DNA from: Anolis carolinensis
Lineage: Eukaryota
DNA length: 64,000 bases
Reading direction: 5' to 3'
Assembly (NCBI RefSeq): GCF_035594765.1
Contig: NW_026943818.1
Location: 20,844,724 to 20,908,723, forward strand
Position 1 is the stretch's first letter; every line of letters starts with the position of its first letter. The notes beneath the pieces were generated by a model, which saw nothing but the letters and a program-made list of their open reading frames with translations, had not been told where the DNA came from and did not search any database. Shown here piece by piece: positions 5,306 through 26,727 of this stretch. A program made the translations under genes and the position numbers.

Positions 5306-6262
5306 CAGTGGTCCTCAAACTTTTTAAGTGGAGGGCTGATTGACAGTCCCTCAGACTGTTGGGAGGAGGATTATGATGAAATAGTCCAGAATTAGGATTG
5401 TTGTTGTGTGCCTTCAAGTCGTTTCAGACTTAGGTCAACCTTAAGTCTAAAGTTTAGGACAAAGGCCAGGTCAATGACCTTGGAAGACCTTAGTTTGGGG
5501 ACCCCTGATCTAGATGCTCTCATAAGACCATCTAGATGATCTCATGAGACCATAGGTGAGGAAAGGGACCCTCAAAGGCCATCTAGATGATCTCATAAGG
5601 CCATCAGAAGTCCATAGATAAGGAAAGGGACCCTCAAATACCATCTAGATGGTTTCATAAGACCATAGGTGAGGAAAGGGACCCTCAAAGCCCATCTTGA
5701 TGATCTCATAAGGCCACCAGAAGTCCATAGATAAAGAAAGGGACCCTCAAATACCATCTAGATGGTTTCATAAGACCATAGGTGAGAAAAGGGGCCCTTA
5801 AAGGCCATCTAGATGATTTCATAAGGCCATCAGAAGACCATGGATAAGGAAAGAGACCCTCAAATACATCTAGACGGTTTCATAAGACCATAGATGAGGA
5901 AAGGGACCTTCAAAGGCCATCTAGATGATCTCATAAGGCCATCAGGTCCATAAATAAGGAAAGGGAAACCATCTAGATGGTTTCATAAGACCATAGGTAA
6001 GGGAAAGGAGCCCCCAAAGTCCATCTAGACAATCTCATAAAACCATAGGTAAGGAAAGGGACTCTCAAAGGTCATTTAGACAGTCTCATAGGACCATAGG
6101 TAAGGAAAGTGACCTCCAAAGGCCATCTAGATGGTCTCATTAGGCCGTAGTTAAGCAAAGAGACTTCCAAAGACCAGGAAGACTTAGGTCAACCCTAAGT
6201 CTAAAGTTTAGGACCAGGGCCAGGTCAATGACTTTGGAGGGCCTTAGTTTGGGGGACCCCTG
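5306..6262 (-). mobile_element. Composite non-autonomous hAT element carrying 51-bp minisatellite (copy 1)
   Basis: TIRs CAGTGGTCCTCAAAC / GTTTGGGGGACCCCTG; 8-bp TSD GTCTACAC at 5298-5305 and 6263-6270; internal extra TIR ending at 5507. Confidence 0.9.
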
Positions 6263-6984
6263 GTCTACACTGTAGAAATAATGCAGTTTGACACCACTTG
6301 GGAATGGTCTTGGGGGACTACAGCTCCCAGGATTCCATAGCATTATTGAGCCATGGCAGTCAAAGTGGTGCCAAACTGCCTTCGTTCTCCCCAGAGAAAG
6401 CAGAAAACCTTGAAGAACTACATCTCCCAAAGTTCCCCAGCTGCATTAATTCTCGAATGTAGATGCACCCAGTAGCTGGGAAAACAGGATGACCAAAAAA
6501 AAAAATCCATCTTTCATTGGAAGCAATTAAGCAAGCCAGAAATGTTCTGCTGATGCATTTATAATGCTCAGCTTGCTAATCGCTGTAATATATGTGTGTG
6601 TGTGGGTAAGGAATGACCCAGAGAGGTAGAAAACAATGGAAAGGAAGGAAGAGGAAATGCCCTCTTGGGTTATGGACGCATTTCCCCAAAGCAAAACAGC
6701 ATCGGCTCTTCCAAAAGGCAGGATTGAAGGGTGTGCCCCCTTTTTTGGTGATAGCTTTCTTTTCCTCCTTTTGGAGAACATTTTCTGCTGCCACGTTTCC
6801 AGCACTTGGACGAGTGACTTATAGGATGGCGTCGAACCTTGGAGGCCTTCAACAGATGGACATGGGAAATGTAGATCCAAGGACAGAGAGATAGAGATAG
6901 ATAGATCGATTGATAGACAGACAGAGGGTGGATTGGATGGCTCTTGGGGTCTCTTCCAACTCAAGCATTCTGAGATAGGAAGAT

Positions 6985-7845
6985 AGACTGATGCAGATAT
7001 AGATGTGGATGTAGATATAGATGTAGTCATAGCCATAGCAATAGACACAAGTGCACATGCGCATAGCCGCACACATACAAGGGGCTGGACTGGATGGCCC
7101 TTGAGGTCTCTTCAACTATATCATTCTATGAGATAGGTAGAGAGATTGATATAGATGTAAATGTAGATGAAAATATAGATATGAATGTAGATAGAGCCAT
7201 AGCCATAGATATACACACATATAGATATAGATGTAGACGTAGATATAGATGTGGATTTAGATATAGCCATAGCCATAGCCATAGATATACACACATATAG
7301 ATATAGGTATAGATGTAAATGTAGATGTAGATATAGATGTGGATTTAGAAATAGCCATAATCATAGATATACACACATATAGATATAGGTATAGATGTAA
7401 ATGTAGATGAAAATATAGATATGAATGTAGATATAGCCATAGCCATAGATATGCACACATATATAGATGTACACGTAGATATAGATGTGGATTTAGATAT
7501 AGCCATAGCCATAGATATACACACATATAAATATAGATATGGATTTAGATATAGCCATAGCCATAGCCATAGATATACACACATATAGGTATAGGTATAG
7601 ATTTTATTTATTTATTTATTTGCAATATTTATATTCCGCCCTTCTCACCTCAAGGGGACTCAGGGCGGATCACAATGTACATGGCGAACATTCAATGCCA
7701 TACGACACACAGAGACCGAGACAAAGACACACTTAGATGTGGATGTGGATATAGATAGCCATAGCCATAGATATACATAGGCTTACATATAGATGCAGAT
7801 GTAAATATAGATGTGGATGTAGTTATAGCCATAGATATACACATA
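6985..7845. repeat. Complex AT-rich simple repeat (ATAGAT/ATAGCC/GATGTA)
   Basis: Visible low-complexity repeats, interrupted by a short LINE 3'-end fragment at ~7600-7700. Confidence 0.85.
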
Positions 7846-8994
7846 CGGGGGCGCAGTCGAGACTGCTTTTTCTGTTGATTTGTTGTGAAACATGATGTTT
7901 TGGTGCTTAGTTTGTAAAATCTTAATGTAATTTGATGTTTAATAGGCTTTCCCTTAATCCCTCCTTATTATCCAACATTTTTGCTTATTTATTTATTTAT
8001 TTATTTATTTACATCATTTATATTCCGCCCTTCTCACCCCGAAGGGGACTCAGAGCGGATCACATTACACATATTAGGCAAACATTCAATGCCTTTTTAA
8101 CACAGGACAAAGACGAACAACATAGCTCCGAGCGGGCCTCGAACTTATGACCTCCTGGTCAGTGACTCATTGCTCTCCCGTCTGCGCCACAGCCCCAACG
8201 CTTTTATTTTTCAGTGATTGGTTTAGGGGGGTGCCAAAATTCTGTTCGCCTACACCTGAAAAATACCTAGGGCCAGCTCTGCCCTTGCCTAAAGGAATCT
8301 TATGAGATTCATGGAGTTGCCATACGTCGACCCAAAGGCACAGAGACATGCATCAAATTTAATTAAAAGTTTGCAAAGTCCATCCTCTCCCTGATCCTTC
8401 CCTAAAGTCCTTCTAACCCAAGGTATTGTGAGGCTTTGAGAGCATCTCTGCAAATTTGGGGGGGCTCCATTGCCACCCGCTCCTTCTCGATGAAATGCCG
8501 GATAATGCTCTTGGAACGCGGCTCCGGCGGAGTTATTTCTGGGTTTGGAAGAACATGAGCTCATGCTCCCTCGCTGCTGCGCCAGAGCCAGATCGTATGA
8601 TACGGCCGGCTTATAAAAAACGTCTCCGTCGGGCAATAAAGGGCCCCGCCAAAACACGAAGATGGAGCAAACATGTCCCTGGAGAGGTCCTATTAGAGCA
8701 CTGAGGAACGTTGGAGCAAAACCCGTCTTCCTTTAGGCCCAGATCCAAGTGCCCCAGTCAGGCGAGAGGCTGGCTTTCCTATAGTGAATGCACATATCCG
8801 TTTATTTTACCTCCATATCACCCAGGAATGCTGGGAGGTGCAGTCCAAAAAGACCAAGCAGGATTTCTGGACTTCAACTGGCATCTCTTCCATTTCCCAT
8901 CTATTCTACTGTCAATCAATTCCATCTGTTCTGTCTATTCCATCATCCATCTAAGTATGCACCATCTATTTATTCCATTTATTCCATCATTTTT

Positions 8995-9660
8995 GTTGAG
9001 TCAGAGAAGCAGAAGAACGGCCTGCCACAGGGGAGCATGCTTGCTCCGTCAATTTTTAACATTTACACAAGTGACCATCCACTCCCAGAAGGGACAGAGA
9101 GTTTCATCTATGCTGACAATCATGTCATCACCGCTCAAGCAAAGAGCTTTGAGATGGTTGAACAGAAGATATCCGAAGCTTTAGGTGCTCTTACTGCCTA
9201 TTACAGAGAATTATTATCATCAAATCATTGCTCCATCCATATCCAACATTTACACAAATGATCAGCCATTGCCAGAAGGGACAGAGAGTTTCATCTATGC
9301 TGATGATCATGCCATCACTGCTCAAGCAGGGAGGTTTGAAATGGTTTAACAGACGCTCTCCGAAGCTTTAGGTGCTCTTACTGCCTGTTACAGGGAAAAC
9401 CAACTGATTCCTAATCCATCTAAAACACAGATGTGTGCTTTTCACCTTAAGAACAGACAATAATCTTGAGGTCTGAGAATTACCTGGGATGGAATCTCAC
9501 TGGAGCATTGCAGCACAACGAAATACCTGGGAGGCACTCCAAATGGCCAACTTCTTGGTCAAAGGAAATCTAGTACAATGTCAAGTGTTTAGCTTTGTTT
9601 GTTTTTTTAAATATATTATAACCGTATCCTCACTTTGTTTCTAACACAATAAATAAATAG
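8995..9660 (+). mobile_element. Vingi-like LINE RT fragment with internal duplication and deletion
   Basis: KQKNGLPQGSMLAPSIFNIYTSD...FIYADN/YADD motifs; ~170-bp block duplicated (~9040-9210 vs ~9225-9395); (TAAA)n-like tail at ~9650. Confidence 0.8.
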
Positions 9661-25330: not shown

Positions 25331-25387
<57 letters not shown>

Positions 25388-25428
25388 GTGGCCATTGACT
25401 GGTCTTCTGCCTCTCTCTGCCCATCAAG

Positions 25429-25661
25429 GGGGCTTCGTGTGCATGACTACCCGCAACAACAGATCCAGCCTCCCCTACAAAACCATCTTGGAGAAGGTCC
25501 TAGCTGACCTGGAGCAGAAGGGATTGTGGGAAAAGATGGCAGCGGAGGGCATCGAGAGGTGGGAGAGAGCAACCTCGGAGGAGGAATCGGGCCCCGGCTT
25601 GGAGTACATCTCCGGAGTGGTCTACCTCTATCGCAAGAAAGGAAGAACCTCCATTCCTTGA
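25429..25661 (+). CDS. METTL27: METTL27 last coding exon
   Basis: Polypyrimidine+AG acceptor, phase 1; GFVCMTTR...LEQKGLWE...YISGVVYLYRK; TGA stop. Confidence 0.93.
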
Positions 25662-25859
25662 CTCACCTGTTTTCCAGTGTAGCTGCGACCCAACACAAAT
25701 GTTTTGATCCTACTTTAGAGCATGTGCAGAGTGTCTTTCCTTCACCAAAATTCAAGACCTAGAGCATGTGTAGAGTTCCTCCCTCATACATACGCCACTT
25801 GTGCCATCTACCCACACTTCCCAGTTTACATCTATAAAATGTTGGCTCATGCCTTAGAG

Positions 25860-26727
25860 CAGGGGTCCCTAAACTAAGGTCTGTGATGCGGCCCTCCAAG
25901 GTCATTGACCTGGCCTCTGTCCTAAACTTTAGACTTAGAGTTGACCTAAGTCTACCTGGTCTTTGGAGGTCTCTTTGCTTACTTATGGCCTTATGAGATT
26001 GTCTAGATGGTCTTTGAAGGTCTCTTTGCTTAGCTACGGCTTTATGAGACCATCTAGATGGCTTTTGGAGGTCACTTTCCTTACCTATGGTCCTATGAGA
26101 CCATCTAGAAGGCCTTTGGGGATCCCTTTCCTTACCTATGGACTTATGAAACCATCTAGATGGTCTTTTAGGGTCCCTTTCCTTATCTATGGTTTCTGAT
26201 GGCCTGATGAGATCATCTAGAAGGCCTTTGAGGGTCCCTTTCCTCACCTATGGTCTTATGAAACCATCTAGATGGTCTTTGAGGGTCCCTTTCCTTATCT
26301 ATGGACTTCTGATGGCCTTATGAGATCATCTAGAAGGCCTTTGAGGGTCCCTTTCCTCACCTATGGTCTTATGAAACCATCTAGATGGTCTTTGAGGGTC
26401 CCTTTCTTTATCTATGGACTTCTGATGGCCTTATGAGATCATCAAGATGGCCTTTGAGGATCCCTTTCCTCACCTATGGTCTCATGAGACCATCTAGATG
26501 GTCTTATGAGAGCGTCTAGGTCAGGGGTCCCCAAACTAAGGTCCTCCAAGGTCATTAACCTGGCCTCTGTCCTAAACTTTAGACTTAGGGTTGACCTAAG
26601 TCTGAAATGACTTGAAGGCACACAACAACAACAATCCTAATTTTGGACTATTTCATCCTAGTCCGGCCTCCCAACAGTCTGAGGGACTGTCAATCGGCCC
26701 TCCACTTAAAAAGTTTGAGGAACCCTG
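25860..26727 (+). mobile_element. Composite non-autonomous hAT element carrying 51-bp minisatellite (copy 3)
   Basis: TIRs CAGGGGTCCCTAAAC / GTTTGAGGAACCCTG; 8-bp TSD CCTTAGAG at 25852-25859 and 26728-26735; internal TIR at 26522. Confidence 0.9.

What the first reader, a model, noticed from the sequence alone, without database searches (positions are those of the whole stretch)
5306..26727. Composite hAT element that mobilises a minisatellite, three copies within 21 kb
Seen: 5306-6262, 9744-10713 and 25860-26727 share the layout [TIR + ~80-100 bp left end] - [51/62-bp minisatellite] - [complete ~200-bp MITE with both TIRs]. Each whole unit is bounded by a different 8-bp TSD (GTCTACAC, ATCTAGTC, CCTTAGAG), so the three-TIR composite, not just the inner MITE, was the transposed unit. 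Known: 8-bp TSDs and CAGGGGT TIRs are hAT/Charlie hallmarks. Inference: a compound transposon formed from two MITE ends that captured a host minisatellite and spread it by local hopping. The parental element without the array is at 41431-42159.
Basis: partly seen in the sequence, partly recalled or inferred. Interest (0 to 1): 0.75.

Follow-up and report, generated by a model that had tools for sequence, protein, structure and literature searches.

The report
Lizard transposon carrying a LINE-tail minisatellite
Three copies of a short lizard DNA transposon, each with its own target duplication, carry a tandem repeat likely grown from a retrotransposon tail; the family is likely spread across the genomes of two species, which makes it a modest variant of known repeat-carrying transposons.

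Summary
Three units (5306-6262, 9744-10713, 25860-26727) share the layout partial left end, 51/62-bp array, complete ~200-bp MITE. Each has its own exact 8-bp TSD and unrelated flanks, so the whole unit moved. The ends are OC1/hAT-HT2 (Charlie) type.

Three corrections. (1) It is unlikely to be a local invention: in public contigs, array and MITE sites are thousands of times deeper than the flank in two organisms. The second organism appears to lack E3 at the orthologous site. (2) The cargo unit aligns along its whole length (38 of 52 columns) with the window's CR1-tail-like repeats, and most units contain the TCTAGA core of the hAT target site. (3) 41431-42159 is a related OC1 derivative, not the parent.

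Local hopping survives in part: E1 and E3 share five variants that at most 0.2-4% of family depth carries. A fourth, end-less array lies 570 bp from E2. MITEs carrying tandem repeats are known, and the family may already be catalogued among anole hATs (not testable here). New variant of a known kind, modest interest.

The parts
5298..5305 (.). E1 target site duplication, left copy (GTCTACAC); right copy 6263-6270
   Evidence: removing E1 and one copy restores the terminus of an older host repeat
5306..5507 (-). E1 inner MITE (202 bp, both TIRs); supplies the right end of the composite
5508..6179 (-). E1 minisatellite, 51/62-bp units with 113-bp higher-order repeat; target-like 8-mer ATCTAGAT next to the inner TIR
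6180..6262 (-). E1 outer left end (83 bp; lacks the 18-bp subterminal segment)
9744..9843 (+). E2 outer left end (100 bp, long OC1-like form), ending at the base of a hairpin; TSD ATCTAGTC at 9736-9743 and 10714-10721
9844..10522 (+). E2 minisatellite with a 259-bp internal duplication
10523..10713 (+). E2 inner MITE (191 bp, about 15-bp deletion)
11283..12343 (-). Free-standing array S: 20.7 units of 51 bp, 204-bp higher-order repeat, no TIR, no 62-bp unit; remnant or source, undecided
25860..25953 (+). E3 outer left end (94 bp); TSD CCTTAGAG at 25852-25859 and 26728-26735
25954..26521 (+). E3 minisatellite, 113-bp higher-order repeat, 22-bp last unit shared with E1
26522..26727 (+). E3 inner MITE (206 bp); last 69 bp match the OC1 right end
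   Evidence: 59 of 69 by eye against the OC1_Das consensus printed
41431..42159 (+). Related 729-bp OC1-type nonautonomous element P (TSD ATCTAGTC), inserted in a CR1-tail-like repeat; not the parent

Best explanation
These are three insertions of a non-coding hAT unit with OC1-type ends, each with its own 8-bp duplication, whose cargo is a minisatellite likely grown from a CR1 retrotransposon tail, and which likely belongs to a genome-wide family moved in trans by an OC1/hAT-HT2 transposase. Inferred order: (1) a CR1 3' tail became a 51-bp tandem array in which most units hold the palindromic TCTAGA target core; (2) a ~200-bp OC1-derived MITE inserted at such a site, and one half of that old TSD remains next to the inner TIR; (3) a second left end became joined to the array at the base of a hairpin through about 4 bp of microhomology, most simply by a partial tandem duplication of the same MITE plus adjacent array; (4) the transposase paired the outer left end with the MITE's right end and amplified the unit to hundreds or thousands of copies; (5) arrays kept changing in place. 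E1 and E3 likely arose from one another, or from a common neighbour, by a local hop; E2 is an independent or earlier insertion. Shown: layout, TSDs, unrelated flanks, shared unit order, high depth. Inferred: steps 1-5, the transposase source and the copy number.
For: Exact, different TSDs and no shared flanks. Pre-insertion sites of E1, E3 and P align across the join with paralogous host repeats. One contig of organism B carries the E3 right flank (36 differences in 596) and runs 277 letters further without matching the element; its match stops 2 bases past the TSD, as the left flank predicts. Same variant units in the same order at the array ends of all three. TIR equals that of anole hAT-HT2N2, -HT2N3 and hAT-N4 (PMC3014272 Table 1); right end 59 of 69 to OC1_Das by eye. 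Unit majority versus tail-like majority: 38 of 52 columns, 0 of 5000 shuffles reach the score; the tail layout resembles CR1 3' ends in the PMC4316615 supplement. 10,091-19,209 contig records laid on 900 bp in 4 of 4 runs; depth at array and MITE sites 2,800-68,000 times the flank, at least about 90-fold after my worst-case division by 31. One listed joint in X15 shows the left-end/array junction with letters unlike E1-E3 (table 5c). E1 equals E3 at 5 of 5 sites where 95.7-99.8% of depth has another letter; E2 has the family letter at 4 of 4 alignable.
Against: The tool states that summed contig depth is no copy number, and no listed piece spans array plus MITE plus a foreign flank, so the number of complete composites is not shown. 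Two listed contigs carry a MITE left end with non-array flank, so stand-alone MITEs exist (X6 record 25 and X10 record 1). The five E1/E3 variants are linked and may mark a minor subfamily; at one further site E2 and E3 agree against E1; private changes are uneven (E1 15, E3 4, E2 20 of 270 columns). E1's outer end lacks the same 18 bp as the inner ends. No CR1 coding sequence was found joined to a tail-like copy in the window. The three organism-A contigs that join E3 to its flank have only 29 letters inside the element, below the tool's 31-letter bridging rule. The letters of the unmatched part of the organism-B contig were not printed.
Confidence: 0.62

Rival explanations
1. All three are independent insertions of the same genome-wide composite family into a repeat-rich, target-rich region. 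The E1/E3 likeness comes from a minor dispersed subfamily or from gene conversion between the two inverted neighbours, not from a local hop.
For: The rare variants are linked; in organism B the non-majority share is somewhat higher at four of the five sites (up to 4.3%), as a minor subfamily would give. The window is crowded with other insertions and arrays. The window was picked by a scan that favours clusters. E1-E3 inner MITEs differ by 5.9% (CI 3.1-10.1).
Against: The E1/E3 type is at most about 1% of depth in organism A at its rarest sites, so drawing it twice independently has about that chance. Local hopping is documented for the hAT Tol2 (PMC2848417).
Confidence: 0.2
2. One reading: the composite is rare and local. 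It formed here from MITE ends and a resident array (S as the source or donor remnant) and hopped three times. The high depth elsewhere comes from free arrays and stand-alone MITEs that are not joined.
For: Array S lacks TIRs, lies 570 bp from E2 and holds the same unit types. Stand-alone MITE ends exist. No listed contig spans a full foreign composite.
Against: A left-end/array junction with letters unlike E1-E3 occurs in X15. Array and MITE-specific depths are within about fivefold of each other in all four runs. S lacks the 62-bp unit found in all three composites, starts with internal unit types in the composite's order, and its last unit is no closer to the tail-like repeat than internal units (score 34 versus 39 and 29).
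Confidence: 0.13
3. The array grew inside an ordinary OC1 derivative from filler DNA that only resembles CR1 tails by chance, and the inner TIR is a later nested insertion whose original partner end was lost.
For: The second shuffle test gave 1 of 5000 and the best shuffle came within one point of the observed score. A nested insertion gives the same final layout.
Against: The match covers the whole unit. In an independent scan of 1000 tiles the four best hits were tail-like copies, with 3 tiles at score 34 or more against 0 in each of 12 shuffles.
Confidence: 0.05

Closest known systems
OC1 (OposCharlie1) and anole hAT-HT2 nonautonomous families hAT-HT2N2_AC (1065 bp, 43 copies), hAT-HT2N3_AC (780 bp, 1,372), hAT-N4_AC (732 bp, >1,000), hAT-HT3N2_AC (833 bp, 132); PMC3014272 Table 1, PMC3621081
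   Same: Same TIR, 8-bp TSD with TA core, no coding capacity, OC1-like 69-bp right end and OC1-like long left end. The non-duplicated path through E2 is 726 bp, in the length range of these families. OC1 is listed at 3,902 copies in the lizard.
   Different: The paper's main text has no occurrence of 'satellite' and its hAT section describes no internal TIR or array. Consensus sequences could not be seen, so identity with one of these families is open. That hAT-HT2 equals OC1 rests on TIR likeness and recall.
MITEs carrying tandem repeats: Xmix/Xstir and miDNA4 in Xenopus, Tetris in Drosophila virilis, Pearl in bivalves (review PMC9659126)
   Same: A nonautonomous DNA transposon disperses a tandem array that goes on evolving in place.
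   Different: Here the unit likely comes from a LINE tail, contains the carrier's own target core, and the carrier has three TIRs.
Anole hobo_AC nonautonomous elements with captured genomic DNA including CR1 pieces (PMC3014272)
   Same: Anole hATs are known to take up extraneous DNA, including CR1 fragments, and to recombine.
   Different: Different TIR and clade; their cargo is described as single TE fragments.
CR1-derived tandem repeat HinfI (SCR1) of chicken (cited in PMC9659126)
   Same: Tandem repeat containing CR1 3' sequence.
   Different: Not reported there as cargo of a DNA transposon.

Membership tests
hAT superfamily (nonautonomous) | 8-bp target site duplication | tested here: met
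   3 of 3 exact and different
hAT superfamily (nonautonomous) | Short TIR beginning YARNG | tested here: met
   6 of 6 outer termini; motif from PMC3014272
Autonomous hAT | Transposase ORF | tested here: not met
   Units are under 1 kb and consist of ends and array; no transposase family among 57 of 88 window ORFs scanned (ORFs inside the arrays were among those left out)
OC1 / hAT-HT2 derivatives | TIR CAGGGGTCCYCAAACT | tested here: met
   Each terminus differs by 1 substitution or 1 extra base (Table 1)
OC1 / hAT-HT2 derivatives | Homology to OC1 beyond the TIR | tested here: met
   Last 69 bp of E3 match OC1_Das at 59 positions, compared by eye
OC1 / hAT-HT2 derivatives | Target preference NTCTAGAN / NTNTANAN / NYYTARRN | tested here: inconclusive
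   E1 fits NTNTANAN, E3 fits NYYTARRN, E2 misses NTCTAGAN at one position; the 8-mers beside the inner TIRs fit in 3 of 3; three sites are too few
A named anole family (hAT-HT2N2, -HT2N3, -HT3N2, hAT-N4) | Full-length identity to the family consensus | not testable with these tools
   No Repbase or Dfam here; supplement of PMC3014272 not available
Compound transposon in the strict sense | Two complete elements flanking the cargo | tested here: not met
   The outer left part is only 83-100 bp with no right TIR; it works like one but has one complete element and one partial end
CR1 3' tail (origin of the unit) | Likeness to the CR1 3' terminal hairpin region and octamer tail | tested here: met
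   Unit versus the window's tail-like repeats 38 of 52, 0 of 5000 shuffles; layout compared by eye with CR1 ends; octamer motif
CR1 3' tail (origin of the unit) | Tail-like copy continuous with CR1 ORF2 | tested here: inconclusive
   Copies read are short; the two RT hits are not joined to them
Segmental duplication | Shared flanks beyond the element ends | tested here: not met

The most novel reading that the evidence does not exclude
A full relay between element classes: a CR1 tail became a minisatellite whose unit rebuilds the OC1 target palindrome, so the array attracted an OC1 MITE, was packaged between three TIRs, was amplified to thousands of sites in at least two lizard species, carries about ten of its own target sites per copy, and sheds free, fast-changing arrays such as S. 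A horizontally acquired hAT would then be the origin of an uncatalogued, genome-wide VNTR family.
Probability: 0.3. Interest if true: 0.5.

Novelty: new variant of a known kind. Interest (0 to 1): 0.3.

Why it matters
It would be a clear vertebrate case of a DNA transposon dispersing a minisatellite, with a traceable origin for the unit (a LINE tail) and many replicate arrays of similar age. That allows a direct comparison of how higher-order repeats (113, 204, 259 bp here) arise from one starting array. It also offers presence/absence and length markers for these lizards and a natural record of local hopping. It does not imply a new mechanism of transposition.

Tried and rejected
Segmental duplication: rejected, no shared flanks. 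41431-42159 as parent: rejected; my first guess that it is hAT-N4_AC is unsure, because it shares a long stretch with the OC1 3' end (by eye), which that family is said to lack. 'The inner left end is crippled by its 18-bp loss, which forces the whole unit to move': weakened, because E1's outer end has the same loss and stand-alone left ends that align to the short form without gaps were listed. S as the birthplace: not favoured; no TIR near it and no direct repeat of 6 bp or more between the border stretches tested. E2 pre-insertion site: only a weak paralogue at 8905-8953, not informative. The filter meant to pick A-type units did not separate them, so its second test is not independent. No whole genome is held. 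Four look-ups of earlier findings returned nothing. Paper searches listed no paper whose title or abstract start describes an anole hAT with an internal minisatellite.
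Full report
Observation. E1 (5306-6262, minus), E2 (9744-10713, plus) and E3 (25860-26727, plus) each run from an outer left end (83, 100, 94 bp) through a 51/62-bp array into a complete MITE of 202, 191 and 206 bp. Each is flanked by an exact and different 8-bp repeat; the chance is about 1.7e-5 per element. Flanks are unrelated. With the unit and one TSD removed in silico, the E1 site aligns with the far terminus of its host repeat and with a paralogue near 39190, and the E3 site aligns with the neighbouring uninterrupted tandem copy. 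The arrays carry the same variant units in the same order near their ends, so the three descend from one composite.

Family. The TIR is that of anole hAT-HT2N2, -HT2N3 and hAT-N4 (PMC3014272 Table 1). A TcMar-N7/N8-type TIR also occurs in the window, so the host is likely an anole (inference). The last 69 bp of E3 match the OC1_Das right end at 59 positions, and the long left end resembles the OC1 left end (by eye). The element at 41431-42159 shares three blocks of about 60 bp at 78-88% and is a relative. The missing parent is the ~200-bp MITE; two listed contigs show such left ends with non-array flanks (X6 record 25, X10 record 1).

Cargo. The majority of 39 units of 51 bp aligns over 38 of 52 columns with the majority of 27 dispersed tail-like repeats in the window; 0 of 5000 shuffles reach the score, the best falling one point short (many of the 27 lie in arrays and are not independent). 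A separate tile scan ranked tail-like copies first. Their layout resembles CR1 3' ends printed in the PMC4316615 supplement, but none was found joined to CR1 coding sequence, so the CR1 label is partly recalled. Most units hold TCTAGA, the core of the NTCTAGAN target in Table 1, and the inner TIR sits directly behind such a site in 3 of 3. The outer left end stops at the base of a predicted hairpin of 10 or more pairs, where its last bases resemble the unit's GTCTA, which suggests a microhomology join. One insertion plus partial tandem duplication, two insertions plus deletion, and nested insertion all give this layout; I prefer the first as the shortest, without a test that separates them.

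Distribution. No genome is held. Of 24 runs listed I laid 4 on 26431-27330, three of organism A from three studies and one of organism B. Each laid 10,091-19,209 contig records. The tool warns that this is no copy number; I use it only to say that both parts are abundant in both organisms. One of 12 rows shown of 111 in table 5c is a left-end/array junction with letters unlike E1-E3. No listed piece spans a whole foreign composite, so the share of arrays inside composites is open. In organism B one 925-bp contig carries the right flank (36 differences in 596) and continues 277 letters without matching the element; the match ends 2 bases beyond the TSD, exactly the overlap the left flank gives. 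I read this as an empty site; the record orientation is inferred from overlaps among other rows and the unmatched letters were not printed. In 3 of 3 organism-A runs a contig joins the flank to 29 letters of the element, just under the tool's bridging rule.

Local hopping. Table 3 showed 40 of 68 rows, 9 of them inside the element. At 5 of these, 95.7-99.8% of depth has another letter than E3; E1 equals E3 at all 5 and E2 has the family letter at the 4 it covers. OC1_Das has the family letter at the two sites it covers (by eye). E1 and E3 also share a 22-bp last unit. Of the other 4 sites, one groups E1 with E3, one groups E2 with E3, one is private to E3 and one is shared by all. The five sites are linked, so the fair chance figure is the share of that type, about 1% or less in organism A. 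Uniform insertion makes three copies in 64 kb unlikely (7e-6 to 0.017 for 1,000-15,000 copies), but the window was selected. E1-E3 differ by 5.9% (CI 3.1-10.1), close to the 6.0% between organisms, and private changes are uneven (15 versus 4), which I cannot explain. A local hop is the best reading; a minor subfamily or conversion remains.

Array S (11283-12343) has the same unit, no TIR within the scan, no 62-bp unit and near-perfect 204-bp repeats. It is more likely a derivative than the source, but this is not settled.

Known context. MITEs that carry tandem repeats and CR1-derived repeats are known (PMC9659126); anole hATs are known to capture CR1 pieces; Tol2 hops locally (PMC2848417). 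What I saw of papers: PMC3014272 abstract, passages and the whole hAT section, supplement unavailable and possibly decisive; PMC4316615 and PMC3621081 passages and supplement passages; PMC9659126, PMC5381603, PMC4408412, PMC3248570, PMC2848417 passages; all others search listings only. Searches listed no description of this element, but Repbase and Dfam were not searchable.

Verdict. A real, mobile three-TIR OC1 derivative with a likely CR1-tail-derived minisatellite, likely genome-wide, with one probable local hop. New variant of a known kind; interest 0.3.

Noticed in passing
window 28823-30508 (-), 34961-35620 (-), 47274-47936 (+): Three uninterrupted claudin ORFs (Pfam PMP22_Claudin). The first is preceded in frame, without a stop, by 9.3 copies of a 90-bp minisatellite, giving a 561-aa ATG ORF with 30-aa repeats; the normal claudin start lies inside it, so the extension may never be translated.
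   Followed up: partly
window 33132-34733, 35918-36757, 37309-37883: Further tandem arrays and inverted pairs built from CR1-tail-like units, unrelated to the hAT; the region seems prone to turning such tails into minisatellites.
   Followed up: partly
window 52525-55500: Left end of another OC1-type element, followed by nested insertions: a SINE-like piece (label recalled), a reverse-transcriptase fragment (53755-54144) and a TcMar-N7/N8-type MITE (54650-54972).
   Followed up: no
window 5293-6470: E1 sits inside the terminus of an older ~200-bp repeat with inverted ends.
   Followed up: partly
window 2954-3972, 13981-14475, 17360-17644, 19229-20089, 38455-39110: Many other minisatellites (periods 21-366 bp); the window is unusually rich in tandem arrays.
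   Followed up: no
window 62144-62476 (+); 27519-27673: An immunoglobulin-domain exon-like frame and a 155-base assembly gap.
   Followed up: no
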